From Isurus oxyrinchus (taxonomy: Eukaryota): 64,000 nucleotides of DNA. The stretch is from the NCBI GenBank assembly GCA_026770705.1, contig JANJGN010000008.1, positions 9,672,001 through 9,736,000 of the forward strand, read 5' to 3'. Made by a program: the position numbers and the translations under genes. Below are positions 4,646 to 57,418 of this stretch, in pieces (position 1 is the stretch's first letter; the number at the start of each line of letters is the position of its first letter). The notes under the pieces are model-generated. The model was not told the DNA's origin. It saw nothing but the letters and a program-made list of their open reading frames with translations, and made no database searches.

Positions 4646-7108
4646 CTCATTGAATAAATTGGCTCTATTATTTACAACATTTGAAGTCTGAACATATTTT
4701 TTGGTCACATTAATGCGGTTGCCCGTCGCAGTTGGACTTTGAATCCAGGGAAATATGTTGCCGCTTGTGTCTCTATCCGATGTAGAACATACCTCGTAAC
4801 GAAAGTTCTGAGGCAGTGGGTCCCGGCCAAACACTTCAACGTAATTCGGGGGGATCTGAAGGTTGACACTGGCTTTTTGTACTCCGTTAAGGGAATGTGT
4901 TGATCCCAAGCAGAAGCATGTATCCAGAGAGCAGCTGTGGCGGTTCAACACGTTCCTACTTCTGTGGATCTTTACAGCGAGGATGACCAAAACCACGAGA
5001 AAAATGGACGAGGTTGTTCCCAAAGCGATGACCAAATATAGGCTTACATCGGAAGGGAATCCGAGATCTCCTGTCAGGCTGTTCACTTCAGAGAGGACGT
5101 CGGCATCACTGTCGGCCAGTGATAAGATGATGTTCATTGTTGCGCTAAGCTGTGGGATCCCATGGTCTTGTACCCGGATAACCAAGCGCTGTTTAGCTGC
5201 ATCCTTGTCCACAATGCGACGGATGGTCCAGACCTCTCCAGTGTCTGGAGAAATAGTAAAAAGACCAGGGTCAGAGGCCTGGACCAACTGATAAGAAAGC
5301 CTTGAATTCGGGCCCGAATCAGCATCAATAGCTGACACCTTGGTCACCAGGTAACCCGGCTCTGCTGATCTAGATACTGTCTCCACTGATGCCGAACCAT
5401 CCTCCGGCCTTGCGGATATGATGACTGGGGCATTGTCATTCTGATCTAGGATGACCACATCCACGGACACGTCACTGCTCAGCTGTGGAACTCCAGCGTC
5501 CACTGCTCGGACCTGCATCTGAAACTTCTTTAACTCTTCGTAGTCATAAGAGCGCTCAGCAGATATTATGCCACTGTCTGAATTAATGGAGACATAATTA
5601 GTTACAGGCAGGTCGCCGACTTGTGTCCTTAGAATAGAATAGGACAGTCGAGAGTTCTGATTTAAATCGGCGTCAAAAGCTGGCACCGAGTAGACAGAAC
5701 TACCGATGACATTGTTCTCTGTCACATAGGCTGTGTATGAGGTCTGTGAGAAACGTGGGGGGTTGTCGTTTATATCTGAGATATTTAGTTGAATGGTTTT
5801 GTTAGAAGTGAGCACGGGCGAACCTTCATCCCTGCAGGTAATGGGGATGTCATATTGAGAGACCATTTCTCGATCTAGTAGATCTTTGGTGACCAATCGA
5901 TAGTAATTTTTAAATGATGAATCTAATTTGAAAGGAAGGCTATTTGGGATCTGACAGTGAGTGTTCCCATTCCCTCCCACATCTGAATCAGTTACACCGA
6001 TTAAAGCTATCACAGTCCCAGGCTGGGCATCTTCAGGAACTGAGCTGGACAAAGAGGTCACTGTTACCTCGGGCGCATTATCATTCACATCAACGATGTC
6101 CACTAGCACATCGCAATGCACAGGCACAGAAAGGAAACCCTTATCGACAGCTTGCACACTAATCTCCAACTCCTTTGCTGTTTCAAAATCCAGATGTCCT
6201 TTAACTCTGATCTCTCCCGTTTTAGGGTCCACACTGAACAGCTCCCGCACTTTGACAGGAGCGTGGCTACCAAAAGAGTAAACGATTTCCCCATTGGAGC
6301 CTTCGTCCGGGTCAGTGGCGTTCACTTGGATCACCAACGTTCCTATGGGCACGTTTTCTAACAAACTGACCCTGTAAAGGGACTGGCTAAAGGTAGGGAT
6401 GTTGTCGTTGGCATCCAGTGCATGGATGATAATCTGTGCCGTGCCAGACCTCTCTGGATTGCCCCCGTCGGTGGCCGTGAGCAGTAACTGCAGTGTGGGC
6501 TGCTGTTCCCTGTCGAGAGGCTTCCCCATCACTAAAACTGGGAGTTTACCGCCCTCACTGCGAGATTGTACATCCAGCTTAAAATATTGGTTCGGAGCTA
6601 ATTGGTAGGTTTGCAATGAGTTGGTGCCTACATCCGGATCGTGCGCAGACTCGAGTGGGAAGCGGAATCCGGGCACCGCCAACTCGGATATTTCCAAACG
6701 GAACTGTCCCTTTGGGAAATGGGGAGCGTTGTCGTTTATGTCCAGAATCTCCACCTCGACATGATAGACATTCAGTGGCTCGTCAATCACAGCCTCCAGG
6801 GCCAAAGAGCAACCGAGGCTCGATCCACAGAGCTGTTCTCTGTCAATGTTCTCCTTTACAAGTAAAATCCCGCTGTCTAAGTTTACGTCGAAATACTGTT
6901 TCCTGGGACCCGACACGATCCGAAAATTCCGGCTGGAGAGCTGGTTTACATCTAAACCCAAATCGGCCGCGATATTCCCGACAAAGGCGCCCCGCTGCAG
7001 CTCCTCAGGAATCGAGTACCGAATCTGACCAGAAACCACAATCCAGGAGGAGAGCAATAAACACAATATTTGCCATTTTAACAGCCAATATATTTTATAA
7101 AATCCCAT
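4646..7108 (-). CDS. Clustered protocadherin variable exon V1 (signal peptide, EC1-EC6, TM, variable cytoplasmic domain)
   Basis: ATG at 7108 (MGFYKIYW...[12 protein letters not shown]); cadherin motifs DRE, DxNDNxP, AxDxG; EC1 C-X5-C; TM SLYLVIALG...; phase-0 donor GAG|GTGAG at 4646/4645. Confidence 0.95.
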
Positions 7109-7333
7109 TTCCAGCACAAAGCATTTCAATTCCTTCGGCACGTCACAGCGCTGCCCAATTATTCACTGGAATAACATAATTGCGTACCATTTTTTTCAAA
7201 ATCTAAAATTAAAAGCTACATTGTACCATAATACCTGTAGTTGTGATAAATCTCCGAGATAATTTCTGATAAATATCCTCAATTCTTCTAAAATCACTGA
7301 TAGTTAGACATACAAAACCTGACATGTCACACG

Positions 7334-7532
7334 GCTCGCTATCCAATTTCACACTGTAGCTGATCCTATGTGATGGCGAATAGGAAGGGAAGGGGGCAGT
7401 CGGGATCTCCAGTCGCCATTCAGCTTCTGATTGGCGAATGGAGCGACATTCGTCTTTAGCCAATCACCATAGGCAGCATTTCTTAAAGCTGGCAGCCTTA
7501 GAGGTTGAACATTTATTGCTGTGCAATCAAAA
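7334..7532 (-). promoter_or_regulatory. Conserved promoter-like block of V1
   Basis: Shared with all ten promoters (+ strand): cgctatccaatttcacactg, agggggcagt (7391-7400), ATTGG 7430, CCAAT 7460, cttaaagc 7482, atttattgctgtgcaat. Confidence 0.8.
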
Positions 7533-8426
7533 TTTTTGCCAGCATCGCTGATCCATTATTTTAGAAATCTGATTGTCTCAGGGAAAAATATTTTCAAAAG
7601 AAGCCTCAGGTAGGGGAACTTAAGGACCATCTATCTCTATATTCCTTGCAGAACACATGTCACCAAGTAGGCAAATTTACTAGCTACAGTGATTTTAGCC
7701 AGAATCCCCAATTGATCTATTTCAACCCTATGCCGAATATGAAAGCTTCACTTGTCTTATTCTTGCATTCATTTTTGATAATCTGACTTCTGAACCTGAC
7801 ATAAGTGATATAAAAACAGAAAATTCTGGAAATACTCAGCAGGTCAGGCAGCATCTGTGGAGGGAGAAACAGAGTTAACGTTCTGGATTGATGACCTTTA
7901 TCAGAACTAGGAATTTAGTAGATTTTGGGCAAGGGGTGGGTGGACAAGGGCAAAGGAAGACCTGTGATAGGGTAAAGGACATGAAGATTGAATGACAAAG
8001 AATAAAGTTTTTCCAGGGCCAAAAGGACTAGAGATGGGCCAAGAATGGAAACAAAGAAACAAAAAAAAAGTCCCTAGAGCAGGTGAGCTGCTGACTGAAA
8101 GCACAAGTAAGGGAGAAGCTGAAGCAAGCAAAGAAAAGGAAATACAATATGGGCCGAGGTTATGGTCTGAAATTGCTGAACTCAATGTAAAGTTGCTAAA
8201 TAAAAGATGAGGCACTGTTCCTCAAGCTTACATTGAATTTCACTGGAAAGTGCAGCAGGCTGAGGACAGAGATGTCAGCATGAGAGTAAGGTGAAATGAA
8301 AGGCCACTAGAAACACGGAGGTGCTCCACAAAGCAGTCACCCAATCTGAGAGTTGACCACGTTGTGAGAAGTGAATACAGCACCTCATCTTTAAATTAGA
8401 CACTTTACAGTCTCCTGGACTAAACC

Positions 8427-8918
8427 ACTTGCCTAGATGAGTGTCGCTCCCACAACACTCAAGAAGGTTGACACCACCCAAGACAAAGCAGCCCACTTGA
8501 TTGGTGCCACATCCACAAACTTTCACTCCCTCCATCACCAATGCACAGTAGCAGCAATGTGTACCATCTACAAGATGCACTATAGGAATTCACCAAGTCT
8601 CCTTCGACAGCATCTTCTGAACCTATGACTGCTACCATCGAGAAGGACAAGGGCAGCAGATAGATAGGAACACCACCACCTGGAAGTTCCCCTCAAAGCC
8701 ACTCACCACTCTGACTTGGAAATATATCACCATTCCTTCACTGTCACTGGGTCAAAATCATGGAACTCCCTCCCTAACAGCACTGTAGGTGTACCTACAC
8801 CACATGGACTGTAGCAGTTGGAGAAGGCAGCTCACCACCACCTTCTCAAGGGCGAGTAGGGATGGGCAATAAATGCTGGCCCAGCCAGCGAAGCCCACAT
8901 CCTGTGAATGAATAAAAA
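8427..8918 (+). mobile_element. 3' fragment of CR1/L2-group LINE (family A, gaatgaataaaaa tail)
   Basis: Homologous to 26839-27731, 45709-46365 and 60449-61574, the last of which carries RT motifs; ends in gaatgaataaaaa. Confidence 0.8.
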
Positions 8919-8995
8919 GACCCTATGACAAAACCTCCTTTAACCTTGTCCCAACCATCTCTTGCTCAAGACCTATTACATGTCTAACTTTTCCC

Positions 8996-9031
8996 AGTTC
9001 TGATGAAAGGTCATTGACCTGGAACGTTAAC
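8996..9031 (+). ncRNA. Hammerhead-like motif with GAAA->GGAA core substitution
   Basis: AGTT-CTGATGA-a-AGGTC att GACCT-GGAAC-GTT-AAC; stems I and II pair. Confidence 0.45.
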
Positions 9032-9573
9032 CCTGTTTCCCTCTTCACAGATGGTGCATGATCTGCATTTTCTGTTTTTATTTCAGGTGTTGGCTCTTCC
9101 TCAACAAAAAATAATATTAAGAAATATGATTATTACAACTTTTCCTAGGTCAAATTTGAATTCAGCAATTGGAGTAATGCTAATAAGGTGATAGTATTTT
9201 GTTGATTTTTTTCAAAATTACTTATTGGTAGATGTATTTGTTTATCATATAACATTTTCTGTGTTACACATTAGAATAATATTTTGTATATTTTTCCAAT
9301 TGGGAGGAAGGTCCTTCAATGATCATTATGTATTAATGGTAAATAAAGCTGAGCGCCCCCTCCCCCTCGAGGAGGTGTTACTAAACGATATATTGCTAGT
9401 TCAGAAAGTACAAGTAAATAACATAAGGCACTCAGATTGTAACGTTTAGCATCACCTTCAACTTCAGGTTACTACACGGAAATAGCTATCCGTTAGACTT
9501 TTCCCATGGGTTTAAGAGCAACCAAACCAAACTTGTGAGGTATTTATTTTGCCCTTTTGAAATAACACCTCAC

Positions 9574-12048
9574 CTCACTGTTTACATGGTTTCTATAATT
9601 TGCAGAAGGTGACGTGTGTGGATTTTTTCCCTTCTCAATATTTTCTCCCCTGACGTTATATTTCAATACAGATGAACCGCACGTGTTGGGAAAGGCGGAG
9701 TCTCGCTTAGTGGAACCCAAAGTTGAATATGTCTCGTAGCGGAAACTCTGCGAAAGTGGATCGCCTCCGAATACCTCCACATAATTCGGAGGTATCTGAA
9801 TGTTTCTGCTGGCTTTTTGGGTCCCATTGAACGAATTTCTTGATTCATAACAGAAACAGGCATCCAAGCCATAACTGTAAACACCAAACCCAGTTCTGCT
9901 TTTATGCACTTTCACAGCCAGGGCGATTAAAATTACCAGGAAAATGGACGAAATTATCCCTAAGGATATCACCAGGTAAAAGCTCAAACCGGAAGTAAAT
10001 CCAGGATCTTCAGTCAAATTGCTAACGTCAGAAAGCAGCTGTGTGTCCCCATCCATCACCGATAAACTGATAGTCATGGACGCTGAAAGCGGTGGTGTTC
10101 CGTTGTCTTTGACCACGATTGTTAACCTTTGCTTCGTTGCATCTTTGTCCCCAATACCACGCACTGTCCAGATTTCGCCTGTGTCAGGCGAAATTGTGAA
10201 AAGCCCTGGGTCAGTAGCCTGGGTAATCTGGTAAGAGAGGCGAGCATTCTGGCCGGAGTCAGCATCGATGGCAGACACCTTGGTAACCAGGTAACCAGGC
10301 TCTGCGAAGCGGGACATTGTCTCTGTTACTGTTGACCCATACTCAGGTAGCGGATGCAGGATCACCGGAGCATTGTCGTTCTGGTCAAGGATAACAACCA
10401 CCACCGAAACATTGTTGCTGAGTGGTGGCACTCCAGAGTCCCGAGCCTGAACCCAGAGCTGAAAGTCTTTGAGCTCCTCGTAATCAAAAGTTCTCTGAGA
10501 AAACAGGATTCCATCCTCTGCATTAATATACACGTAGCTGGCCACGGACTCATCCTGGATCAGCTCCCTCGGAATGGAATAAGATATTCGAGCGTTCTCG
10601 TTAAAATCCGGGTCAGACGCTGTCACCGAAAAGATAGAGGATCCGATAATGTTATTCTCCATCACATAGGCTGTGTAGGCAGACTGTTTGAAACGTGGCG
10701 CGTTGTCATTCACGTCTGAGATCTCCACCTGCACCGTTTTCTTGGAAGTGAGAGGAGTCGATCCTGAATCACTACAGAGAATAGCGATGTCGTACTTGGA
10801 GGTATTTTCACGGTCCAGTTGTTCCTGGGTTAGCAATTTGTAATAGTTCTTTAAGGGAGAACTTAATTCAAAGGGAAGGTTATTTGGGATTTGGCATTGA
10901 ACTTGACCATTTTCTCCTGAGTCTTTGTCTGTGGTACTAATCAGAGCTACCACAGTCCCGGGAACAGCGTCTTCGCGAACTGGGCTGAACAGAGAAGTCA
11001 CTATAACCTCAGGTGAGTTATCATTCGCATCAGTAACGTCCACGTGTACATGACAGTATGTAGGAGCTGCATAAGGTCCCTTATCTATTGCTTGAACGTT
11101 GATATCAAAAGCACTGTTTTCCTCATAGTCCAAATTCCCCTTCACTCTGATTTCCCCAGTTTTGGAATCCAGACCAAACAGTTGACGCACTGTCGCGGAG
11201 GTATGACTGGTAAAAGAATATTCTATCTCACCATTAGCACCATCATCCAAGTCAGTTGCATTAAGTTTAATCACTAATGTTCCTTGGGGCACGTTTTCAT
11301 TCAGGCTGACCCTATAAACCGACTGGGGGAACACAGGAGAGTTGTCATTGGCATCCTGTACCATGATTATTATTTGAGCAGTGCTGGACCTCGGAGGGTC
11401 CCCGCCATCCTTGGCAATTAACTCTAACCTGTGGGTTGACTCTTTCTCTCGGTCCAATGGCCTTTCAAGCATTAACACTGGCAGCTTCTCGTCTCCGCTG
11501 CGGCTCTCAATGTCGAGGGCGAAGTACCGGTTTCCGACCAGCCGATAGCTTTGTAGGGAGTTGGTTCCAACGTCCGGGTCTTGCGCGCACTCGAGGGGGA
11601 AGCGCGCTCCCGGTGCCGCCACTTCAGAGATTCCAAGGCGGATTTGGTTCTTTGGGAAATGGGGAATGTTGTCGTTTACATCCAAGACCTCCACTTCCAC
11701 TCGGTAGACATTCAAAGGATTTTCGATCACAGCCTCTAAAGACAATAGGCAAGTGGGGCTCGACCCACAGAGCTGCTCTCTGTCAATTTTCTCCTTCACA
11801 AACAAAATCCCATTGTCTAAATTGACGTCCAAATAGCTTTTTCTGGGACCGGGCACAATTCGAAAATTCCGAGCCGAGAGCTCTTCCACGTCTAAACCCA
11901 AATCGCCTGCGATATTCCCAACAAAGGCGCCCAGTCGTAGCTCTTCAGGAATGGAGTAGCGAATCTGTCCCGATACCAGCACCCAAAAGGGGAATACACT
12001 GTACAACAGTTGCCATTTTACTAAGTAATATATTTTATAACATCCCAT
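9574..12048 (-). CDS. Clustered protocadherin variable exon V2
   Basis: ATG 12048 (MGCYKIYY), six EC repeats, [22 protein letters not shown]; phase-0 donor GAG|GTGAG at 9574/9573. Confidence 0.95.
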
Positions 12049-12260
12049 TTCCAGCGAAAAACATTTCAAATGCTTCAGCGCAGCACCGCTCCGTTCGCCA
12101 ATTCGCCTCAATAAACTGCTTTATATATCATTTTAAGAAACCTATAATTTGCAAAATACCTGTACTATTTGAACATCCTGCCGTTAATTGTGACAAATGT
12201 TCTTATAGTTTCTAAAATCATCCATAGATGCACGTACAAATAGTAATATAGCGATACGCA

Positions 12261-12465
12261 GCTTGCTGTCCATTTTTACACTGTGGCTGATCTTACGTTG
12301 ATGGTGGATGGGGAGGGAAAGAGGATCTCCGGGCAAATTCTAGCTTCTGATTGGTGAACGTAGGCATGTTCACATTCAACCAATCACTGCTCTAAACATT
12401 ACTTAAAGCTAGAACAGCTTGGTAAACCTCTGCGTAAAAGTAACATTTATGGTTGTACAACCAAA
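12261..12465 (-). promoter_or_regulatory. Conserved promoter-like block of V2 (lacks the GGCAGT segment)
   Basis: ttttacactg, ATTGG 12350, CCAAT 12380, cttaaagc; the G-rich tract runs straight into ggatctcc. Confidence 0.75.
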
Positions 12466-12761
12466 AATATCTTCAACATTTCCTTCAATATTTTGACTTT
12501 ATTTTCTCTATCAAGGAATATTTTGAACTATGGGACAAGATTTGCTGATAAAATAAAAAGCAAGGCTAATTAAGCTTGCTGTTATTTTCAGGTAAATGTC
12601 ACAGCAGGTTCTGGCCAAGGTGAGATACCCCTTTAACGTGGATCTGTTAACTGTTTGTCCCTTGCGAAGGATCCTGCACGAAACACAGGAGCTTGTTCAT
12701 TAGGTAGGCATAAATGCTACAGAAAACAAGCTAATATTTCTATTGTCATAAGGTATTAAAC

Positions 12762-13105
12762 CATAAGAACACAAGAAATAAGAACAGGTGTAAGGCAGGG
12801 GGCCAATCGAACCTGCCCCGCCATTCAGTAAGATCATGGCTCAATTAACTCATCGCATCCACTTTCTCGCCCTATCCCGGCAGCCCTTGGCTCACTTCAT
12901 GCCCACAAATCTATCCATCTCAGTTTTGTATATGCTCAGTGACTGAGCATCCACAGCTTTCTGGGGTAGGGAATTCCAAAGATTCACAACCCTCTGAGCG
13001 AAGAAATTCCTCCTTATCTCGGTCCAAAATGACTGACCCGTCATCCTGAGACTGTGACCATTAATCTTGCATTTCCAGCCTTGGCAAACAGCCTGACAGC
13101 ATCTC
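12762..13105 (-). mobile_element. 3' fragment of CR1-type LINE (family B)
   Basis: Minus strand GHSLRMTGQSFWTEIRRNFFAQRVVNLWNSLP, typical of a CR1 ORF2 C-terminus; cataagaac-type tail. Confidence 0.8.
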
Positions 13106-13422
13106 AAACATGTTTTTTTTTGTCTATAATAATGGATTCTGCATTGTGTATGAAAGCATTTTAAAAATACCTTCATGCTGGATAACAATTGCAATTATAA
13201 ATATAATGGAATAATTATCAAGGAAATGGTAAGACGCCTCTAGCGTTGAGCCTGGTCAGAGATAATGGTGTAGAATTTAAAAAGCGAGGAATATTAATAG
13301 CCTAGGCAGCATCTCTCCCATCTCTTCATCTGCACCTGTAGAAATCCTTAGGGTGATATGAGTACATCAGAATCAAACACATTTCGTGTTCTCCCGTCCC
13401 ACCCTTCAGGGGGGTGTCTCAC

Positions 13423-15882
13423 CTCACTACTAGCAGTGTTTCTAGAATGGTCAGAATTCAACACCGGTGGGTTCTCGTCCTTCCCAGTAGGGCCGCTATG
13501 GGTGTTCTTCTTGCCGGCGTATGAACTATACATGTTGCGAAACATGAAGTCTCTCTTGACTGTACCCGAGGATGAACACGTGTCGTAGCGAAAGCTCTGG
13601 GAAAGCGGATCGCCCCCAAACACTTCCACGTAGTTTGGAGGAATCTGAAGGCTCCTCCCGCCCTTCTGAGTTCTTGCCTCAAAGCAGCAACTGGTGCCCT
13701 GGCAAGAGATACAGCTATCAACGCCTGGTCTGTTTCGGTGAACCTTAACAGCGAGGATAATTAAAATGACCAGAAAAATGACGGAAAGTAAGCCGAGAGA
13801 TATGACTAAATAAAAGTTTGTACCCGAAGCAAAAACATGTCCTTCAGATAAACTGTCCACCTCGGATAACATTTCTGTTTTACTTTGTTCCACTGATATA
13901 ATGATGGTCATTGTAGCTGAAAGTGATGGCGACCCGTTGTCCTTTACTACAACGACCAACCTTTGCTTACTGAGATCTTTGTCCAGAATACCACGAATTG
14001 TCCATATTTCCCCCGAGTCCGATGAAATAGTAAAAAGTCCAGGATCAGTAGCCTGAAAGATCTGGTAAGAGAGGCGACCGTTCTGGCCAGAGTCTGCATC
14101 GGTTGCGGATACTTTAGCAACCAGGTAACCTGGCTCTGCGAGTCTCGATACAGTTTCTATCACCGCAGAGCCATACTCTGGAGATGGGTGTGTGATAACC
14201 GGGGCATTGTCATTTTGGTCAAGGATAATAATGTCCACTGAGGCGTTGCTGGTCAGTGGTACTGCCCCAGAGTCCTCTGCTCGGACCTGGATCTGAAAGC
14301 TTTTAACTTGTTCATAGTCAAACGTTCTCTGAGAATAGATAACACCAGTTTCTGAATTAATGTGCACATACGCGGAAATCGGCAGGTCCTGATCCCCAGT
14401 TTCCAGGATGGAGTAGGACAGGCGAGAGTTCTGGTTTAAATCTGGATCAAAAGCTGTCACTGAGAAGATGGAAGAGCCAATAAGGTTATTCTCCATTACG
14501 TGGGCTGTGTAAGCAGGCTGCGTAAAGCGGGGCGCGTTGTCATTTATATCAGAAAGTTCCACCCGGATGGATTTCTTGGTTGTGAGGGGAGGGATTCCTC
14601 TATCGCTACATAGGATTGCAATGTCGTACTTTGAGGTATTTTCGCGATCGAGTGGCTGCTGAGTGAGCAGCCTGTAATAATTCTTCAAAGAAGAATCTAG
14701 TTTGAAAGGAGGGCCATTTACAATTTGGCATTGGACCTGCCCATTATCACCCGAGTCTCTGTCCTCCACATTAAACAGGGCCACCACGGTCCCAGGCGGA
14801 GCGCCTTCGCTAACAGGACTGAACATCGAAGTCAAAGTCACCTCAGGTGCGTTATCATTGACATCAGTAATGTTCACCAGCACATCACAGTACACAGGAG
14901 TAGCATTAGGCCCCTTGTCCATCGCCTGCACGTTAATCTCAAAAACCCCATTTTCTTCATAGTTCAAGTTACCTTTGATTCTAATTTCCCCAGTTCTGGA
15001 ATCCACGTTAAACAGTTCACGGACTCTGGCAGAGGCGTGACTACTGAAAGAATATACAATCTGTCCGTTAGGACCGTCGTCTAAGTCAGTAGCGTTTAAT
15101 TTGATTACCAAAGTTCCTTTGGGTGCATTTTCCAGTAGCCTCACCCGATATACTGACTGTGGGAACACGGGCGCGTTGTCGTTAACGTCCTGGACGGTAA
15201 TAATTATCTGGGCAGTTCCAGATTTTTCAGGGATGCCCCCATCCTTGGCAATTAGCACTAACCTGTGTGTCCTTTGTTTTTCTCTGTCCAGCGGCCTTTG
15301 CAACACTAACACTGGCAACTTGCCATCTCCACTGCGCGACTGGATGTCTATTGTGAAATATTCGTTAGCCACTAGCTGGTAGGTTTGTAAGGAGTTGATG
15401 CCAACGTCCGGATCCTGAGCCGACTCGAGGGCAAAACGCGCTCCTTGCACGGCCACCTCTGAGATTTCCAAACGGAATTGGCTTTTGGGGAAACTGGGAG
15501 CGTTGTCATTTACATCCAGAATCTCCACTTGAAAATGATACACGTTCAAGGGATTTTCGATCACAGCCTCGAAGGACAATGTACAAACAGGGCTCGGCCC
15601 ACAGAGCTGTTCCCGGTCAATTTTTTCTTTCACGACCAATATCCCACTGTCCAAATTTACATCCAGATACTGCTTCCTGGGACCAGACACAATCCGAAAA
15701 CTGCGAGCCGAGAGCTCTTTCGCGTCCAAACCCAAATCGTCTGCGATATTCCCAACAAAGGCGCCCAGTTGCAGTTCTTCAGGAATCGAATAGCGAATTT
15801 GTCCCGAAACCAGAACCGAGGAGGACAACACACAGCATAAAAGTGACCATTTTAACAGCCAATGTATTTCAGAAAGTCCCAT
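13423..15882 (-). CDS. Clustered protocadherin variable exon V3
   Basis: ATG 15882 (MGLSEIHW), six EC repeats, TM, conserved cytoplasmic motif; donor at 13423/13422. Confidence 0.95.
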
Positions 15883-16102
15883 TTCCCGCACAAAGCATTC
15901 CAATTACTTCAGCGCGAGACGCCATTCAATCACATCTTGGAATAAGATTCAATATAAACCATTTTCAACGATAAATGGGGGCGATATTTCATAAAGGTAC
16001 CTGTATTTCTTTCAAATATCACTAAGACTTCGTTCTATTCTGCAGATTTCTTTTTAAAATTACCAATATATGCGAACACAAAACCCAGTGAAGCGCCGCG
16101 CA

Positions 16103-16305
16103 GCTCGCTATGCTGGTTTTACACTGTATCTGATCGTACGTAATGGTGGATGGGAAGGGAAGAGGGCAGTCAAGATCTCCAGACACATTACAGCTTCTCA
16201 TTGGTGAGCTGGGATTCAACCAATCCCCATACAGAACATTTCTTAAAGCTGCAATGCCTCTGTGAGTCGCTGTGTGATATTTACATTTAGTATTGTGCAA
16301 TCTAA
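16103..16305 (-). promoter_or_regulatory. Conserved promoter-like block of V3
   Basis: ttttacactg, agagggcagt, ATTGG 16200, CCAAT 16220, cttaaagc, attgtgcaat. Confidence 0.8.
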
Positions 16306-17066: not shown

Positions 17067-19508
17067 CTCATTATTCACAGAGTTCCTGCACTGCACAGTG
17101 TTTGGTGCCCCAGGGGTATCTCCATTCCCCAAAATACCACTTGGGATGTGATTCTTCCGTGAAGACATGCTGCATCTGTTGGAAGGCGTGAAATCTCTCT
17201 TTGTGGAGTATGAAGTTGAGCATGTATCATAACGGAAACTCTGAGAAAGTGGATCACCTCCAAACACTTCAACATAGTTCGGTGGTATCTGAAGACTTCT
17301 GCCGCCCCTTTGAATTCCATGTCGGGTATTTCTTGCAAAACAGCCACATGTGTCCAGAGAAGAGGTGTTGTGGACCTTGATAGCGAGGGTAATCAAAATC
17401 ACCAGAAAAATGGTCGAGATGATGCCTAAAGTAATGACCAGGTAAAAACTGGTATCAGAAACGAACCCAGGATCTTCATTGGCCACATTGGAGAGCATTT
17501 GTACATCGGTTCCTGTCACAGACAAGATGAATGTTACGGTGGCTGTAAGCGGAGGTAATCCATTGTCTTTAACTCCAATTACCAACCTTTGCTTAGTAGC
17601 ATCATTATTCATTATGTTGCGGATAGTCCAAATTTCCCCTGTGTCTGGTGCAATAGTAAAAAGGCCAGCATCAGTAGCTTGGAGAATCTGGTAAGTAAGG
17701 CGGGCATTCTGACCTGTGTCACCATCAGTAGCAGAAACTTTAGCAACCAGGTAGCCTGGTTCTGCGAACCGGGACACCGTCTCTAATACCGTGGAGCCGA
17801 ACTCGGGTAATGGATGCACGATCACGGGGGCATGGTCATTCTGGTCGAGGATAATTATATCCACTGAAGTGTTGCCAGAAAGTGGCGGGGCTCCAGAGTC
17901 CCGCGCCTGAACTTGGATTCGAAAGTTTTTGAGATGCTCGTAGTCGAACGTTCTCTGAGAATAGATTACACTGCTGACCGAGTTAATGGAGACATAAGTG
18001 GAGGCTGGCTTGCCCTGAATCAGAGTCTCCGAGATAAAGTAGGACAGGCGAGCGTTCTGATTTAAATCTGGATCGAAAGCACTCACCGAGAATATGGACA
18101 CACCAATAGCATTGTTCTCCATCACCTGAGCTGTATATAAAGGCTGAGGAAACTGGGGTGGATTGTCATTTGTATCAGAAACCTCCACCAGGATGGTTTT
18201 GTTGGAGGTGAGTGTGGGGATTCCCGCATCCCTGCACACGATAGTTACACTGTAGTTTGACACATGCTCCCGATCCAGTGCCTCCCTGGTAACTAATCTG
18301 TAGTAGTTGTTTAAGGACGAATCCAGTTTAAAGGGAAGGCCATTTGGGGCTTGACATTGTACGTGTCCGTTTTCTCCCGAGTCTCTGTCTGTTGAAATGA
18401 TCAGAGCCACCACAGTTCCAGGGAGAGAGTCTTCACTGACAGGACTGAACAAAGACGTTAGAGTCATCTCAGGTGCGTTGTCATTCACATCAACGACGTC
18501 AAGCACAACGTGACAGTACACAGGGGTTGCGTTAGGTCCTTTGTCCTTTGCTTGTACATTAATCTCAAAAATACTATTTACTTCATAGTCTAAATTCTTC
18601 TTAATCTTGATTTCACCAGTTTTTGGATCCAGGCCAAAATGTTCACGGACTCTATTCGAAGTGTGACTGCTAAATGAATAAACTACCTGCCCATTGAGAC
18701 CCGCATCCAAATCAGAGGCGTCTAGTTTGATCACCAATGTTCCTTTAGGTACATTCTCCAGCAAACTGACCCTGTAGACTGACTGGGGGAAAACAGGTAC
18801 GTTGTCGTTGGCATCTTCCACTGCGATCATTATTTCAGCAGTGCCTGACCTCTCAGGAACCCCTCCGTCCTTCGCAATTAACACTAACCTGTGTGTATTT
18901 TCCTTTTCCCTGTCCAGGGGTCTTTCCAAGACTAAAACCGGTAACTTTCCGTCCCCACCGCGCGTCTCGACATCCAGGCTGAAATAATCGTTGGCTACCA
19001 GCTGGTAGCTCTGTACGGAATTGGTTCCAACGTCCGGGTCGTGCGCACACTCCAGGGCAAAGCGCGTTCCCGGGGCAGCCACCTCTGAGATTTCCAGACG
19101 GAACTGGCTCTCTGGGAAAGTCGGAGCGTTGTCATTTACATCCAGAATCTCCACTTGAAAATGGTACACATTCAGGGGATTTTCAATCACGGCTTCAAAG
19201 GACAATGTGCACGTGTGGCTCGGCCCACAGAGCTGCTCTCTGTCCATTTTTTCCTTCACAAGCAAAATCCCATTGTCTAAATTTACGTCCATATACTGCT
19301 TACTGGGACCGGGCACAATCTGAAAGCCGCGAGCTGAGAGCTCCTTTTTATCCAAATCCAAATCCTCTGCGATATTCCCGACAAAGGCGCCTACATTCAG
19401 TTCCTCAGCAATTGAATAACGTATCTGTCCAGAAACTACTTCCCAGGACGAGATGGTACAATATAGAAGTTGCCATTTCAATAGCCAATATATTTTATAA
19501 TATTCCAT
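17067..19508 (-). CDS. Clustered protocadherin variable exon V4
   Basis: ATG 19508 (MEYYKIYW), six EC repeats, TM, conserved cytoplasmic motif; donor at 17067/17066. Confidence 0.95.
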
Positions 19509-19729
19509 TTCCAGCACAAAGCATTTCAAGTGATTGAGCACAACGCGGCTCCGTTGAATAATTCCTCGCAAAACACTGAATTACGTTTCCATTTTGGCGA
19601 AACAACTGGTTTGCATGAACACACGTACATTTAAAAAAATAAATCGGCGAAATTATTTCTGACAAACCTTCTTATTCCTTCTAAAATCACCAGTGGATGA
19701 ATGTAGAAAACGTAATCTAACGAGAGGCA

Positions 19730-19937
19730 GCTCTATCCAACGTTACACACTTTCAGGTCGTATATAATGGCGGAAGAGGAGGGTAGGGCAGTAAGGATCT
19801 CCAGTCACGGTACAGCTTTTCATTGGCCAAAAGGGCTGACTTGCATTCAGCCAATCACCACACTAAGCATTTCTTAAAGCTGGACTGTCTTTCAAAACCT
19901 TTGCGCAATATTTACATTAATTGTTGTGCAATGTAAA
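19730..19937 (-). promoter_or_regulatory. Conserved promoter-like block of V4
   Basis: tagggcagt, ATTGG 19822, CCAAT 19851, cttaaagc, attgttgtgcaat. Confidence 0.8.
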
Positions 19938-26820: not shown

Positions 26821-26838
26821 AAACCCATCTGCCCCCTC

Positions 26839-27731: not shown

Positions 27732-27734
27732 TTA

Positions 27735-28260: not shown

Positions 28261-30720
28261 CTCACTAATGTTCCTACAGTTGGTGGAATGTGATGCTGGT
28301 GGTTTTTTTTTATCCCACATAGTTTCATTGCCGGGATTATTCTTGCCGATAGAAGAACTACACCTGTCGGAGTACAATAACTCTCCTTTGGTCGAATCCG
28401 AAATCGAACAGGTCCCGTAGCGGAAACTTTGGGAAAGTGGATCGCCTCCAAATACCTCGACGTAGTTCGGGGGTATCTGGATATTTCGACTGGCTTTCTG
28501 AATCCCATTCCTCGTTCTAAAGCAACAACACAAATCCAGAGCACAGCTATAGCCGCCAAAACCGTTCCTGGTTTTATGTACTGTAATTGCAAGAGCAATT
28601 AAAACGACTAGAAAAATGGACGAGATTATCCCTAAAAATATAACTATGTAAAAACTTGCATCATTAGTCAAGCCAGGATTTGCCGATAAATTGCTCATAT
28701 CAGAGAGCATTTCTGTATCTCCCTCCACCACTGACAAGATGAGTGTCATTGTAGCAGAGAGCATTGGTGTCCCATTGTCGTTTACCGCGACAACCAGCCT
28801 TTGCTTATTTGCATCTCTACTCGCGAAGCCACGGATTGTCCAGATTTCTCCTGTATCAGGTGAGATGGTGAAAAGTCCTGGGTCAGTAAACTGGAGAATC
28901 TGGTAAAAAAGTCGAGCATTCTGGCCCGAGTCAGCGTCAGTGGCGGTGACCTTAGTGACCAGGTAGCCTGGCTCTGTGAACCTTGACACTGTCTCCAATG
29001 CTGTTGAACCGTACTCCTTGTGAGGATGGACGATCACCGGGGCATTATCATTCTGATCAAGGATAATTACATTCACCGAAGTATTGCACATGAGAGGGCG
29101 GGGCCCAGAATCCCGTGCCTGCACGTGGAGCTGAAAATTTTTCAGTTGTTCGTGATCAAACGTTCTCTGAGAAAATATCACCCCATTTTTGGAATTGATG
29201 TTGACGTAACTGGACATCGGCTCGCTCTGAACCTGGCTCTCGAGGATAGAGTAGAATAATCGGGCATTCTGGTTCAAATCTGGATCGAGAGCCGTCACTG
29301 CGAAGACTGAAGTCCCAACCACGTTGTTTTCCATCACATAGGCTGTGTAGGAAGTCTGTGTAAAGCGTGGCGCGTTGTCATTTACGTCCGAGATTTCCAC
29401 TCGAATGGTTTTCCTGGATGACAGGGGAGGAGACCCTGAATCGCTGCAGATAATGGAAAGGTCATACTTTGAAATATTTTCTCTATCCAAGAGCTGGCGG
29501 GACAGCAATGTGTAATAGTTCCTCAAAGACGAATCTAACCTGAAAGGCAGGTTATTTGCGATTTCACAGTCTACCTGCCCATTCTCTCCAGAATCTTTGT
29601 CCGATACACTGACCAGGGCAATCACAGTCCCGGGTTTGGAGTCTTCACTGACAGGACTGAACAAAGAAGTTAGTGTCACCTCAGGTGCGTTATCATTTAC
29701 ATCAATAATATTAACTAAAATGTGACAGTATCCAGGAATTGGATTCGGACCCTGGTCCATTGCTTCTACGTTAATCTCAAATACACTGTCTTCTTCATAA
29801 TCCAAAGGTCCTTTAACTCTGATTTCACCATTTTTGGAATCCAGACTAAACAGACCACGGACCCTGGCTGAGGTATGGCTGCTGAAAGAGTACAATATCT
29901 CTCCATTGAGACCATCATCTAAATCAGTGGCATTTAGCTTGATAAGCAACGTTCCTTTAGGTGAGTTTTCTAACAGACTAATTCGGTAAACTGAATTTGG
30001 GAAGACTGGTGCGTTGTCGTTTGCATCCTGCACTGTAATTATTATTTCAGCAGTGCCCGACTTTGGGGGAATCCCGCCGTCTTTGGCAAGAAGCTCTAAC
30101 CTGTGAGTCGATTGCTTTTCTCTATCCAAGGGCTGTTCCAGCACCAGTACTGGCAACTTCCCGTCCCCGCCACGCGAATCAATATTTAATGTGAAATATT
30201 CGTTAGCAACCAGCTGGTAGGTTTGCAGGGAGTTGGTTCCAACGTCGGGATCGTGCGCGTACTCCAGGGCAAAGCGCGCTCCCGGTGCCGCAAGCTCAGA
30301 GATTTTAAGGCGAAACAGGCTGTTTGGAAAACTGGGAGCGTTGTCGTTTACATCGGAAATCTCCACTTCGATGTGATACACGTTCAATGGGTTTTCGATC
30401 ACGGCCTCCAAAGATAACATGCACAGGAGGACCGCCCCACAGAGCTGTTCCCTGTCGATTTTTTCTTTCACAAATAAAATCCCATTGTTTAAATTTACCT
30501 CCAAATGCTGCTTCCGGGGACCAGGCACAACCCGAAAATTGCGAGCTGAGAGCTGTTCTGCACGTAATCCCAGGTCATCTGCAATATTTCCGACAAAAGC
30601 GCCTGGTGGTAGCTCCTCGGGAATCGAATAGCGAATCTGTCCAGAAACTACAGCCCAGAAAAGGGACACGCAATGCACCAGTTGCCAAGTTAGCCACCAA
30701 TATATTTGATAATATCCCAT
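28261..30720 (-). CDS. Clustered protocadherin variable exon V6
   Basis: ATG 30720 (MGYYQIYW), six EC repeats, TM, conserved cytoplasmic motif; donor at 28261/28260. Confidence 0.95.
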
Positions 30721-30936
30721 CGCCAGCACAAAGCATTCCAACTGCTTCAGCGCTATGCAGCGCCGTTGGTTCAATCCTTAAAATTGAGGTCCTTATATAT
30801 CATTTTCTTGGAGTGAAGAAGCTCCAATGTATAAAATAACTGCACGATTTGTACCTCACTCAGACTATTCCCGACAAGCATTCCTATCTTGTCTGAAAAC
30901 TCTCAATAGCCGCAAAGACCTCACATATGCTACGCA

Positions 30937-40421: not shown

Positions 40422-42890
40422 CTCGTTGTTTACAGCATTGTTGTAATTTTCAGAGGTAACCTTTCCCGTGCTTTCTTTCCTCAAAGAGTCATTCTGGATA
40501 TAATTCTTGTCTGTAGATGACCTGCAAGTGTTAAGGGACAGGAAGTCTCTCTTTGTTGAATGCAATGTTGAACATGACTCATAGCGGAAACTCTGAGAAA
40601 GTGGATCACCCCCGAATACCTCTACATAGTTCGGGGGTATCTGAAGGTTTCTACTGGCCTTCTGAATTCCATTCAGAGAATGTCGCCTTTCAAAGCAACA
40701 ACAAACACCCAGGGAACAATGCTGACCACCCAAAGCATTTCTGCTTTTATGAACCTTCACAGCAAGGGGAATTAAAATCACTAGAAAAATAATAGAAATT
40801 ACTCCTAATGCTATGACCAAGGAAAGGCTCAGATCAGGAGTGAACCCTGTATCTTCAAATGATCCACTGACGCTGGAGAGTGTTTCAGTGCCACCACCTA
40901 CCACAGTTAAGATGATGGTCACTGTGGCAGAAAGTGATGGTGTTCCATTATCTTTTACCACAATCACCAACCTTTGCTTAGAGGCATCTTTAGTGGCAAT
41001 GCGACGGATAGTCCAAATTTCCCCAGAGTCTGGTGAAATAGTAAAAAGGTTATGCTGGGTAGCCTGGAAAATCGAATAAGAAAGGCGAGAGTTCTGACCG
41101 GCGTCAGCATCAGTGGCTGATACCTTGGTAACCAAGTAGCCCGGTTCTGCAAACCTGGATATTGTCTCTACTGCTGTTGACGCATACTCGGCTAATGGGT
41201 GCACGATCACTGGAACATTGTCATTCTGATCAAGGATAATAACATTCACTGAGACATTACTGGCGAGTGTTGGGGTTCCAGAGTCCATGACCTGAGCTTC
41301 GAACTGAAAGTTTTTCAATTTCTCGTAGTCAAAAGATCTCTGAGCTAATATGACCCCAGTCTCCGAGTTAATAGAGATGTAAGTGGATACCGAGGCGTTC
41401 TGAATTTGCGCTTCCAGGATAGAGTATTTTAGCCGAGCGTTCTGACCAACATCTGGATCAAAGGCTGCAATAGAAAATATAGAAGCGCCAATAACATTGT
41501 TCTCCATGACGCTTGTTGAGTATAAAGACTGGGTAAAACGCGGGGCATTGTCATTTATATCTGAAACCTCCACCCGAATGGTTTTTTTGGATGTGAGAGG
41601 AGGATCTCCTGAATCCGTGCATGTTATAGTGACGTCATACTTGGAATCATTTTCACGATCCAGTGAATGTTGAACAAGTAGTCCATAATAATTCTTCAAA
41701 GAATAATCTAGTTTAAAGGGGAGTTTATTAGATGTTTGACATTGTACCTGCCCATTCGGTCCCGAATCTTTATCTGCTGCACTGAACAGGGCGACTACAG
41801 TTCCAACTGGAACATCTTCTGAGACTGTACTGGACAAAGACGTCAATGTCACCTCAGGTGCGTTATCATTCACATCAATAACATCCACCAGCACATCACA
41901 GTGCTCAGAAACAGCGTATGGACCCTTGTCAATTGCTTGTATGTTAATCTCAAAGGCCTTGTCCTCTTCATAGTCCAGATTCCCCTTTAATCTAATTTCA
42001 CCAGTTTTAGAATCCACGTCAAAAAGTTCCCGAACTCGAGCAGAAGAATGGCCACTGAGCGAGTACGTTATCTCTCCATTGGGTCCATCGTCCAAGTCGG
42101 TGGCATTTAAAATGATTATCCGAGTCCCTGTGGGTGCGGTTTCCAATAGGCTGACTCTGTAAACTGACTGGGGAAAAACAGGGGCGTTGTCGTTTGCATC
42201 CTTCACTATGATTGTGACCTGAACCGTGCCGGATCTCACAGGGACCCCGCCGTCCTTGGCTATTAACGTTAACATGTGGCTGGATTCCGTTTCTCTATCC
42301 AAAGAACTCTGCAGCACCAATACTGGCAACTTCCCTTCTCCACTGCGCATCTGAACATCGAGAAGAAAATAATCGTTCGGAATGAGCTCGTAGGTTTGCA
42401 ATGAGTTAGTTCCAATGTCCGGATCGTGCGCACCCTCCAGCGGATAGCGCGCTCCCGGCGTAGATATCTCGGAGATTTCAAGGCGTAATTGTCTCTTTGG
42501 GAAACGGGGAGCATTGTCATTTACATCGAGAATCTCCACTTCAACCTGGTACAGCTTTAAGGGATTTTCAACCAATCCGTCCAAGGAAATCACACAACTC
42601 AAACTAGGCCCGCAAATCTGTTCTCTGTCAATTTTTTCCTTTACAAATAAAATGCCATTGTCCAAATTTATGTCCACGTATTGTTTCCTGGGACCGGGTA
42701 CAATCCGAAAACGGCGAGCCGAGAGCTGCTTTATATCCAAACCTAAATCATCTGCGATATTCCCAACAAAGGAGCCCACTTGCAGTTCTTCAGGAATCGT
42801 GTAACGAATCTGCCCAAACACGAGATTCCACCAGGAGAATACACAGTAAAATAATTGGCATTTCAGCAACCAATATATTTTATATCTCAT
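40422..42890 (-). CDS. Clustered protocadherin variable exon V8 (homogenised subgroup)
   Basis: ATG 42890, six EC repeats, TM, conserved cytoplasmic motif; donor at 40422/40421. Confidence 0.95.
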
Positions 42891-43096
42891 TTCCAGCGAT
42901 AAGCATCCCCCTCGTTTCAGAACGTGTCCGTACCATGAATTATCCTTTTTATAGTTATATCAATATATTTTAAAGGTGGAATAACTGTAGTATAACAAAT
43001 ACCTGAATATTTTACAGATCGCTCGAATTACTCCATTTAAATCTTCTATGTTTGTCTAAAATTGCCAGTGGATTCGTGCAGAAATCCTACCGAGCT

Positions 43097-49334: not shown

Positions 49335-49539
49335 TTCCAGCGAGAATCATTCCCCTTGTTTCAGAACGTGCCCGTACCATGAATTATCCTTTTTATAGTT
49401 ATATCAATATATTAGAAACCGGAAAAACTGCGATGCTGCAAGTACCTGAGTGTTTTACGAATCGCTCGTATTATTTCATTTAAATCTTCTATTTTTATCT
49501 AAATTTGCCAGTGGATTCGTGCAGAAATCCTACCGAGCT

Positions 49540-54750: not shown

Positions 54751-57213
54751 CTCACTATTTATATGATTGCTGCAATTTTCGGAATTATTCATTTTCATGT
54801 TTTCTTTCCTGCCAGAATCATTCCGAAAATAATTCTTGTCTGTCGATGACCTGCATGTGTTGGGGGTTATGAAGTCTCTCTTTGTTGACTGCAATGTTGA
54901 ACATGACTCATAGCGGAAACTCTGAGAAAGTGGATCACCTCCGAATACCTCAACATAGTTCGGGGGTATCTGAAGGTTTCTACTGGCCTTTTGAATTCCA
55001 TTCAGAGAATTTCTGGTTTCAAAGCAGCAACAAACACGCAGGGAACAGTGCTGACCACCCAAAGCATTTCTGCTTTTATGAACTTTCACAGCGAGAATAA
55101 TTAAAATCACTAGAAAAATGATAGAAATTACTCCTAATGTTATCACCAAGGAAAGGCTCAGATCAGGAGTGAACCCTGCATCTTCAGACGATCCACTGAC
55201 GGTGGAAAATGTTTCAGTGTCGCCACCTACCACAGATAAGATGATGGTCACTGTGGCAGAAAGTGATGGTGTTCCATTATCTTTTACCACAATCACCAAC
55301 CTTTGCTTAGAGGCATCGTTATGGGCAATATGACGGATAGTCCAAATTTCCCCAGAGTCTGGTGAAATAGTAAAAAGGTTATTCTGGGTAGCCTGGAAAA
55401 TTGAATAAGAAAGGCGAGCGTTCTGACCGGCGTCAGCATCAGTGGCTGATACCTTGGTAACCAAGTAGCCTGGTTCTGCAAACCTGGATATTGTCTCTAG
55501 TGCTGTTGACCCATAGTCGGCTAATGGGTGCACGATCACTGGAACATTGTCATTCTGATCAAGGATAATAACATTCACTGAGACATTGCTGCTGAGTGTT
55601 GGGGTTCCGGAGTCCATGGCCTGAGCTTGGATCTGAAAGTTTTTCAATTTCTCGTAGTCAAAAGTTCTCTGAGCTAATATGTCCCCAGTCTCCGAGTTAA
55701 TAGAGATGTAAGTGGATACCGAGGCGTTCTGAATTTGCGCTTCCAGGATAGAGTATTTTAGCCGAGCGTTCTGACCAACATCGGGATCAAAGGCTGTAAT
55801 GGAAAATATAGAAGCGCCAATAACATTGTTCTCCATGACGCTTGCTGTGTATAAAGACTGGGTAAACCGTGGGACATTGTCATTTATATCTGAAACCTCC
55901 ACCCGAATATTTTTCTTGGATGTGAGAGGGGGATTTCCTGAATCTGTGCATGTTATAGTGACGTCATACTTGGAGGCATTTTCACGATCTAGTGAACGTT
56001 GAACAAGTAGTCCATAATAATTCTTCAAAGAAGAATCTAGTTTAAAGGGGAGTTTATTTGATGTTTGACATTGTACCTGCGCATTTGCTCCCGTATCTTT
56101 ATCTGCTGCACTGAATAGAGCGACTACAGTTCCAACTGGAGCATCTTCTGAGACTGTACTGGACAAAGACGTCAATGTCACCTCAGGGGCGTTATCATTC
56201 ACATCAATAACATCCACAAAAACATTACAGTGTCCGGACATTGCATCTGAACCCTTATCCATTGCTTGTACGTTAATCTGAAAGGCCTTGTTCTCTTCAT
56301 AGTCCAAATTCCCTTTCAATCTGATTTCACCAGTTTTGGAATCCACGTCAAACTGTTCCCGAACTCGAGCAGAGCCATGACTACTGAGCGAGTACCTTAT
56401 CTCTCCATTGGGGCCATCGTCCAAGTCAGTGGCATTTAAAATGATTACCCGAGTTCCTGTGGGTGCCGTTTCCAATAGGCTGACTCTGTAAACTGACTGG
56501 GGAAAGACAGGGGCGTTGTCGTTTGCATCCTTCACTATGATTGTGACCTGAACCGTGCCGGATCTCACAGGGACCCCGCCGTCCTTGGCTATTAACGTTA
56601 ACATGTGGCTGGATTCCGTTTCTCTATCCAAGGAACTCTGCAGCACCAACACTGGCACATTTCCTTCCCCACTACGCACATCGAGAATAAAATAATCGTT
56701 GGGAATGAGCTCGTAGGTTTGCAATGAGTTAGTTCCAATGTCCGGATCGTGTGCGGACTCGAGGGGAAAGCGTGTTCCCGGCGTAGAAAGCTCTGAGATT
56801 TCAAGGCGGATTTGTGTCTTTGGGAAACTGGGAGCATTGTCATTCACATCGAGAATCTCCACTTCAACCTGGTACAGCTTTAAGGGATTTTCAACCAAAC
56901 CGTCCAAGGAAATCACACAACTCAAACTAGGCCCGCAAATCTGTTCTCTGTCAATTTTTTCCTTTACAAATAAACTGCCAGTTTCCAAATTTATGTCCAC
57001 ATATTGTTTCCTGGGACCGGGTACAACCCGAAAACGGCGAGCCGAGAGCTGCTTTATATCTAAACCCAAATCATCTGCGATATTCCCAACAAAGGAGCCC
57101 AGCTGCAGTTCTTCAGGAATTGAGTAACGAATCTGCCCAAACACGAGATTCCACCAGGAGAATACACAATAAAATAATTGGCATTTCAGCAACCAGTATC
57201 TTTTATATCTCAT
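54751..57213 (-). CDS. Clustered protocadherin variable exon V10 (homogenised subgroup)
   Basis: ATG 57213, six EC repeats, TM, conserved cytoplasmic motif; donor at 54751/54750. Confidence 0.95.
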
Positions 57214-57418
57214 TTCCAGCGAGAATCATTCCCCTTGTTTCAGAACGTGCACGAACCATGAATTATCCTTTTTACAGTTATATCAATATATTATAAACCG
57301 GAAAAGCTGCAATGCAGCAAATACCTGAGTGTTTTACGAATCGCTTGTATTATTTCATTTCAATCTTCTATTTTTGTCTAAAATTGCCAGTGGATTCGTG
57401 CAGAAATCCAACCGAGCT

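What the first reader, a model, noticed from the sequence alone, without database searches (positions are those of the whole stretch)
7095..57259. Out-of-frame ATG at exactly -16 in all ten complete variable exons forms an overlapping uORF
Seen: uATGs at 7124, 12064, 15898, 19524, 23636, 30736, 35125, 42906, 49350 and 57229, each 16 nt before the main ATG and each with G at -3. In 9/10 the frame closes 8-9 codons later, just inside the CDS (e.g. V1 ATG CTT TGT GCT GGA AAT GGG ATT TTA TAA). V3 keeps the stop as TGA although the protein changes YK->SE; V6 alone reads on to 30575. An in-frame N-terminal extension is an unlikely explanation, because that frame has stops in V3 (TAA) and V9/V10 (TGA). 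Known: overlapping uORFs block reinitiation and leave only leaky scanning. Inference: a cluster-wide translational damper of Pcdh dosage; I know of no description of this.
Basis: partly seen in the sequence, partly recalled or inferred. Interest (0 to 1): 0.75.

Follow-up and report, generated by a model that had tools for sequence, protein, structure and literature searches.

The report
Decoy start codon in shark protocadherins
All ten protocadherin variable genes in this shark DNA carry an out-of-frame start codon exactly 16 bases before the real one, inside an anciently conserved 33-base block, and it likely diverts part of the ribosomes and so would cap how much of each neuronal identity protein is made.

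Summary
Confirmed, on the minus strand: 10 of 10 variable exons of a shark protocadherin nu-type cluster have an out-of-frame ATG at -16 with G at -3. The frame closes after 8-9 codons in 9 of 10. V7-V10 are one young clade, so there are 7 lineages. These are near saturation at silent sites (0.45 identity), so neutral survival of the triplet is improbable (about 1e-4). Spliced-RNA contigs run ungapped through the ATG in V2 (three studies) and in V3 and V5 (one run), and 11 of 11 read-through gene models from eight other sharks and rays are compatible with it. However, the whole -33..-1 block is conserved, an imperfect dyad fits it about as well, the likely 230-245-nt leaders hold 36 other upstream ATGs, and the early stop is not clearly selected. 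Best reading (0.55): a conserved overlapping uORF that competes with the main start 16 nt away and lowers protein output. No translation data exist and contigs cannot fix the transcription start. Overlapping uORFs are a known kind; my searches found no report of one in clustered protocadherins.

The parts
7095..7124 (-). V1 overlapping uORF, 9 codons, ATG at -16
12035..12064 (-). V2 overlapping uORF, 9 codons
   Evidence: inside RNA-like contigs of X1, X3, X4
15869..15898 (-). V3 overlapping uORF, 9 codons, TGA stop
   Evidence: inside X1 contig
19495..19524 (-). V4 overlapping uORF, 9 codons
23607..23636 (-). V5 overlapping uORF, 9 codons
   Evidence: X1 contig at depth 5 ends 16 nt beyond the ATG
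30575..30736 (-). V6 overlapping uORF, 53 codons
35099..35125 (-). V7 overlapping uORF, 8 codons; a second ATG at -46 is in the same frame
42880..42906 (-). V8 overlapping uORF, 8 codons
49324..49350 (-). V9 overlapping uORF, 8 codons
57203..57229 (-). V10 overlapping uORF, 8 codons
12049..12081 (-). Conserved -33..-1 block (V2 copy). Other copies: 7109-7141, 15883-15915, 19509-19541, 23621-23653, 30721-30753, 35110-35142, 42891-42923, 49335-49367, 57214-57246. Holds the uATG, an imperfect dyad centred on -19 and a TGA at -29 and/or -20
   Evidence: 0.76 pair identity, 15 of 33 columns invariant in 7 lineages, against 0.39 and 1 of 27 at -60..-34
12049..12282 (-). Predicted V2 mRNA leader, about 234 nt, with five further upstream ATGs
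   Evidence: start site inferred
15883..16125 (-). Predicted V3 mRNA leader, about 243 nt, with four further upstream ATGs
   Evidence: start site inferred
12282..12409 (-). Conserved promoter region (V2 copy): GCTTTAAG box near -361, ATTGG near -336, CCAAT at -306, initiator-like CAGTGT at -234; present at matching places in the other genes (initiator-like motif not found in V4)
   Evidence: motif names are recalled
9574..12048 (-). V2 coding part of the variable exon, main ATG to splice donor (V1 4793-7108, V3 13423-15882, V5 21167-23620 likewise)
   Evidence: Pfam cadherin domains; RNA-like contigs stop at the donors while DNA goes on at three of them
12129..12131 (-). Semi-conserved strong-context AAA-ATG at -80..-84 (V2 copy; A also at 7190, 15962, 19592, 30803), opening short uORFs that end before -16
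   Evidence: 5 of 7 lineages

Best explanation
Each variable exon carries a conserved out-of-frame ATG 16 bases before its main start, which likely lies in the mRNA leader and is predicted to capture part of the scanning ribosomes, so that less protocadherin would be made per transcript. Shown: position, frame, -3 purine, conservation across seven old paralog lineages, and RNA-like contigs through it. Inferred: transcription starts about 230-245 nt upstream, below paired CCAAT boxes. Ribosomes, first-pass or reinitiating after the leader's other short uORFs, meet the -16 AUG (purine at -3, no G at +4). Those that start there end 9-12 nt past the main AUG and make no cadherin. The rest reach the main AUG by leaky scanning or short-range competition. 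The peptide itself probably does not matter. The conserved bases around the ATG would tune the split between the two starts. The same element in every cassette would set a similar ceiling for each isoform.
For:: silent sites near saturation (0.45; 3 of 111 invariant), yet the ATG and its -3 G are invariant in 10 of 10 while -2, -1 and +4 vary; neutral retention 8e-5 to 5e-3; invariant purine-N-N-ATG in 0.7-1.6% of column shuffles; 11 of 11 gene models from 8 other shark and ray species that read through this region have K/E/G/Q then C/W at codons -6/-5. Two have W and V9/V10 have a stop, so the TG is kept and cysteine is not. It is the only codon column whose first two bases hold in all 11; contigs from three runs of three studies stop at variable-exon donors where the DNA run goes on, and pass ungapped through the V2 ATG to -134, -230 and -429; V3 to -241. 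The two X1 ends lie 4 and 2 nt from a conserved initiator-like motif. Literature passages: oORFs and uAUGs near the CDS are the most depleted class, and conserved uAUGs tend to be more repressive (PMC7889888); out-of-frame uATGs from -30 to -3 lower output, less when closer (PMC9743702, yeast).
Against: No ribosome or reporter data. 8 of 13 invariant columns are not explained by the ATG and the two -3 bases, and a Watson-Crick dyad scores as well (P 0.013). Contigs are unstranded, cannot show a start, and could include intron or antisense RNA; X3 runs to -429, past the proposed start. None of the runs is on record as RNA. The leaders hold 36 other uATGs, so -16 may add little. Protein models show only compatibility (the A is not readable) and exist only where the main frame is open. 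One chimeric Mustelus model (P0007) lacks the C/W and may be an exception. V6-V10 leaders were not tested with RNA.
Confidence: 0.55

Rival explanations
1. The -33..-1 block is a protein-binding DNA or RNA element (for example a dyad AAGCA-N7-TGCTT centred on -19, about 200 nt below the transcription start), and the ATG is a tolerated by-product.
For: The whole block is conserved and sharply bounded. 41 of 50 cells pair Watson-Crick, P 0.013 against column shuffles. The dyad accounts for the invariant AA, TT, TG and central G. A hairpin is predicted with probability 0.4-1.0 in V2, V3, V5, V6. Identity stays at 0.72-0.80 to +39.
Against: No covariation above shuffles (203 of 500). With G-U allowed P is 0.15-0.20. 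No consensus fold there and no hairpin in V1, V4, V7-V10. The TG is invariant while its partner arm breaks in V1, V3, V8 and in several other-species models. The dyad does not explain the invariant A. No CTCF or NRSE match above shuffles.
Confidence: 0.28
2. The main transcription start lies within or just below the block, so most mRNAs have a very short leader without a usable -16 AUG; the block is a core-promoter element.
For: A 230-nt leader with 2-7 ATGs is a poor template; the block is as conserved as the upstream promoter; contigs cannot give level or start.
Against: Contigs pass through to -134, -230, -241 and -429; CCAAT boxes lie about 290 nt upstream of the block and about 70-80 nt above the X1 ends.
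Confidence: 0.08
3. The block encodes an in-frame N-terminal extension begun at a CUG or GUG at -30/-33; the ATG is a by-product of Glu/Lys-Cys codons.
For: The frame is open in 7 of 10; pN/pS 0.71; the V3 stop is absent from two orthologous models.
Against: Two independent stops; CTG missing in V1 and V4; Cys changes to Trp twice and to stop once; silent divergence is halved (0.31 against 0.60), which protein selection does not predict.
Confidence: 0.06
4. Gene conversion or slow neutral evolution made the copies alike; the ATG has no role.
For: EC1 silent identity is raised (0.62, 16 sites); chondrichthyan cluster copies can be young (V7-V10).
Against: Paralog-specific marks in the block are shared with orthologs in rays and distant sharks, so the copies were not recently homogenised; flanks at -60..-34 and in the signal peptide are diverged; limited conversion reported for elephant shark (PMC2764143, passage).
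Confidence: 0.03

Closest known systems
Out-of-frame overlapping uORFs (oORFs) with conserved start codons (PMC7889888; PMC11685710)
   Same: Out-of-frame AUG in the leader whose frame ends inside the CDS; start codon conserved, peptide not clearly so.
   Different: Here the same element sits at one fixed distance in every variable cassette of a gene cluster, across paralogs that are near saturation at silent sites; translation is untested.
Closely spaced competing AUGs (PMC9743702, yeast libraries)
   Same: Two AUGs 16 nt apart, at the edge of the roughly 17-nt range in which they compete.
   Different: Those were synthetic variants; natural proximal out-of-frame AUGs are described as purged, not conserved.
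NRXN2-alpha 5' leader (PMC7042298)
   Same: Neuronal adhesion gene held down by upstream AUGs in a conserved leader.
   Different: Single gene, acts with a G-quadruplex; not a repeated cassette element.
Clustered protocadherin CSE/CGCT box, eCBS and NRSE (PMC7811963, PMC4978886, PMC2926608)
   Same: A conserved element repeated ahead of each variable exon.
   Different: Those act on transcription, about 200 bp upstream or inside the exon; this block abuts the start codon and matches neither consensus.
ATF4-type two-uORF switch (recalled, no call)
   Same: Short upstream uORF followed by an overlapping one, in 5 of 7 lineages.
   Different: Only 16 nt separate the two final starts, which leaves little room for delayed-reinitiation bypass.

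Membership tests
Chondrichthyan protocadherin nu subcluster | Tandem large variable exons encoding signal peptide, six cadherin repeats and a tail | tested here: met
   Ten ORFs of 822-915 codons; Cadherin_2 plus five Cadherin and Cadherin_C_2 in V2
Chondrichthyan protocadherin nu subcluster | Splicing to shared constant exons like those of elephant shark nu | tested here: met
   RNA-like contigs stop at donors of V1, V2, V3, V5; P0032, 98.4% identical to V1, has a constant tail alike to C. milii nu17 (P0063); V1-V10 are 67-71% identical to P0063. No tree was built.
Overlapping uORF (oORF) | AUG upstream, out of frame, stop inside the CDS | tested here: met
   10 of 10
Overlapping uORF (oORF) | AUG lies within the mature mRNA leader | tested here: inconclusive
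   Unstranded contigs of spliced-RNA runs cover it in V2, V3, V5; start site and strand not shown
Overlapping uORF (oORF) | Start codon conserved beyond background | tested here: met
   Met against neutral sites; only modest against the surrounding block
Overlapping uORF (oORF) | Translated, and represses the main ORF | not testable with these tools
   Needs ribosome profiling and reporters
Conserved-peptide uORF | Peptide under purifying selection | tested here: inconclusive
   pN/pS 0.46 on four codons only; codons 2 and 3 vary widely
CSE / CTCF site | CGCT box and CTCF core at a fixed place near -200 | tested here: not met
   Best match 3-5 mismatches, as in shuffles; CGCT at no fixed place in all ten (consensus recalled, no weight matrix)
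NRSE (REST site) | Match to the 17-base fugu consensus | tested here: not met
   4-7 mismatches, as in shuffles (consensus from PMC2926608)
Conserved RNA hairpin | Covarying, stable stem in all copies | tested here: not met

The most novel reading that the evidence does not exclude
Clustered protocadherins have a built-in translational layer of control: a two-start element copied into every variable cassette before sharks and rays split, which sets a common low ceiling on each isoform, may respond to initiation-factor state, and has counterparts in bony fish (three of four teleost-like loci here show an overlapping ATG at exactly -26).
Probability: 0.2. Interest if true: 0.72.

Novelty: new member of a known kind. 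Interest (0 to 1): 0.42.

Why it matters
Work on clustered protocadherins concerns promoter choice; the two reviews I searched by term gave no passage on translational control of the cluster (PMC7339444: 0 hits for uORF, UTR, start codon; PMC7811963: 0 for UTR). Neuronal self-recognition is thought to depend on the mix of isoforms at the surface (recalled), so an element that fixes output per transcript in every cassette would bear on how that mix stays balanced. uORFs have been reported to buffer translation (PMC12143884, abstract). It is cheap to test with ten short leaders in a reporter, and it prompts the same look at fish and mammalian clusters.

Tried and rejected
Whole-genome search: no genome held, so no further paralogs and no genome-wide background rate of uATGs at -16. 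Yu et al. 2008 (PMC2268768) was not held; its promoter motif could not be compared and may cover part of what I describe. Short-protein search: nothing. Representative search: 25 hits, no new shark read-through model. Prokaryote genome scan: nothing. Metagenome scan: 68 loci, of which 4 vertebrate-like ones with a start were examined. No RNA holder listed on record; V4 leader and V6-V10 had no listed contig or were outside the stretch laid, which proves nothing. A 5' leader intron from the donor-like CAGGTA near -120: listed contigs pass it ungapped in V2 and V3, but 712 joints were not shown. Consensus RNA structure: -1 kcal/mol, not over the ATG. Selection on the early stop: 81 of 90 protein starts are compatible with it by script (one miss is a mis-parse), but Lys/Arg there is expected in a signal peptide and stops make up 6% of that frame. 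Models P0005 and P0007 were left out of the 11 because their upstream residues come from another exon. Earlier scan notes: none bore on this. Paper searches with no report of this element: (0 papers).
Full report
Locus. The window holds ten large cadherin reading frames on the minus strand. V2 has the Pfam layout of a protocadherin variable exon. V1 is 98.4% identical to a Carcharodon carcharias protein, whose constant tail resembles Callorhinchus milii protocadherin nu17; V1-V10 are 67-71% identical to nu17. This is a nu-type cluster of a shark close to the white shark. That elephant shark has delta, epsilon, mu and nu subclusters comes from passages of PMC2764143 and PMC4978886.

Observation. 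All ten ATGs are present, at -16, out of frame, with G at -3; the uORFs have 9 (V1-V5), 8 (V7-V10) and 53 (V6) codons. V7-V10 are one young clade (0.86-0.88 at fourfold sites); the seven lineages are 0.41-0.52 identical there, with 3 of 111 columns invariant. The -33..-1 block is 0.76 identical with 15 of 33 columns invariant, the 27 bases before it 0.39 with 1 invariant. Neutral retention of a triplet in 7 of 7 is 8e-5 at the mean silent identity, 5e-3 at the EC1 value. Given the block's own conservation, an invariant ATG arises in 4-7% of column shuffles and one with an invariant -3 purine in 0.7-1.6%; these tests are post hoc. So selection on the block is clear, selection on the ATG as such is likely but not proven.

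Is it in the mRNA? Four of 18 listed runs were laid on 4400-24300, which covers V1-V5 only. None is on record as RNA. In X1, X3 and X4, contigs stop at variable-exon donors (4791, 9570, 13415-13419, 21163) with unaligned tails, while the DNA run X11 continues across three of these; the V1 site equals the variable-constant junction of P0032. They are therefore spliced RNA. Listed contigs pass without a gap through the V2 ATG to -230 (X1), -429 (X3) and -134 (X4), through V3 to -241 (X1) and V5 to -32 (X1). The X1 ends lie 4 and 2 nt below a conserved CAGTGT motif, about 70-80 nt below a CCAAT box that pairs with an inverted one further up (motif names recalled). This is a weak hint of a start near -230 to -245: one run, two genes, unstranded contigs, most table rows not shown, and X3 runs past it, as intron or antisense RNA would. 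Such leaders hold 36 other ATGs in ten genes against 48 in base shuffles. All of these end before -16 except those at -43/-46 in V3 and V7-V10, which share the -16 frame.

Other species. No DNA of distant sharks could be fetched. Among 103 protein hits, 13 shark or ray models have residues before the usual Met; 11 read through the block, and 2 (P0005, P0007) join another exon and were left out. All 11, from eight species including two rays, have K, E, G or Q followed by C (9) or W (2), which is what A-TG requires. Neighbouring codons vary more: first two bases compatible in 8-9 of 11 at codons -9, -8 and -4 (read by eye). The models are orthologs of V1-V4 and V7-V10 or other paralogs and keep paralog-specific marks, which argues against recent conversion. 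Limits: the A cannot be read from protein, the models exist only where the main frame is open, the query contained the extension, and P0007 may be a true exception.

Rivals. In-frame extension: main-frame pN/pS 0.71 with pS 0.31, against 0.44 and 0.60 in the signal peptide and 0.22 and 0.52 in EC1; two independent stops; no common near-cognate start. The constraint is on nucleotides. Dyad: five pairs around -19 hold in 45 of 50 cells, with no covariation above shuffles; P 0.013 as Watson-Crick, 0.15-0.20 with G-U; a hairpin is predicted in 4 of 10 copies. It explains more invariant columns than the uORF does, but not the A, and its left arm breaks where TG does not. It stays the main rival, and both could hold. 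CTCF and NRSE consensus matches were no better than shuffles. The early stop is weak evidence.

Mechanism. Inferred: scanning or reinitiating ribosomes meet an AUG with a -3 purine and no +4 G; those that start there end just past the main AUG. In yeast libraries, out-of-frame uATGs from -30 to -3 lower output, less so when close, and AUGs within about 17 nt compete (PMC9743702, abstract and passages), so a partial rather than complete block is predicted, possibly with some decay of the mRNA. oORFs and uAUGs near the CDS are the most depleted class across eukaryotes, and conserved uAUGs tend to be more repressive (PMC7889888, passages); uORF number and oORF context were top predictors of translation in zebrafish reporters (PMC11685710, passages). 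Keeping such an ATG in every cassette is therefore unlikely to be free. A strong-context ATG at -80 to -84 in 5 of 7 lineages may feed reinitiating ribosomes into the pair; this is borderline.

Novelty. Overlapping uORFs are well known; NRXN2-alpha is a neuronal example (PMC7042298, abstract). Searches of the held library (listings only) showed no report for clustered protocadherins, and term searches in PMC7339444 and PMC7811963 gave none (passages). The library lacks most subscription papers, Yu et al. 2008 could not be read, and no supplements were read, so prior mention is not excluded. PMC2926608 was seen as passages, PMC12143884 as abstract. Three of four teleost-like protocadherin loci have an overlapping ATG at -26 in weak context; they are few, related and A+T-rich, so this is a lead only.

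Verdict. Real, old and non-neutral feature; a conserved overlapping uORF acting as a partial brake is the best reading (0.55); new member of a known kind; interest 0.42.

Noticed in passing
L001 (ATG 26 nt before 929), L002 (before 520), L048 (before 809): Three of four teleost-like protocadherin starts from metagenome contigs have an out-of-frame overlapping ATG at exactly -26, in weak context; L003 has none overlapping.
   Followed up: partly
window -29 and -20 of each main ATG (e.g. 12077 and 12068 in V2): Every copy has a TGA in the third frame at -29 and/or -20; V1 and V4 lack the first but have the second, so uORFs in that frame always end just before the -16 ATG. Could be chance.
   Followed up: partly
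window 7190, 12131, 15962, 19592, 30803 (minus strand): Strong-context AAA-ATG at -80 to -84 in 5 of 7 lineages in an otherwise diverged stretch, opening 3-15-codon uORFs.
   Followed up: partly
window 7355-7489, 12282-12409 and matching places in all ten genes: Conserved promoter of about 150 nt: a near-invariant GCTTTAAG box, inverted and direct CCAAT boxes, GGAGATCC and CCACCATC motifs, with no clear CTCF/CGCT site, unlike mammalian promoters.
   Followed up: partly
about -100 to -130 of each main ATG (e.g. near 12162): Conserved CAGGTA-like motif; resembles a splice donor or a ZEB site (recalled); listed contigs show no splicing there.
   Followed up: partly
+29/+32 of the main ATG in 9 of 10 genes: A second out-of-frame ATG in the uORF frame (Lys-Trp/Cys codons); V6 lacks both it and the early stop.
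   Followed up: no
window 7800-9100, about 12400-13030 and 20450-20900: Very high read depth in RNA and DNA runs marks high-copy repeats between V1/V2, V2/V3 and V4/V5.
   Followed up: no
window 11059-11101: All three RNA runs differ from the window by a dense cluster of substitutions and a compensating one-base insertion and deletion within V2: a short frame-shifted or converted patch, or an assembly difference.
   Followed up: no
window 63357-63998 (minus strand): 3' part of an eleventh cadherin frame cut by the window end.
   Followed up: no
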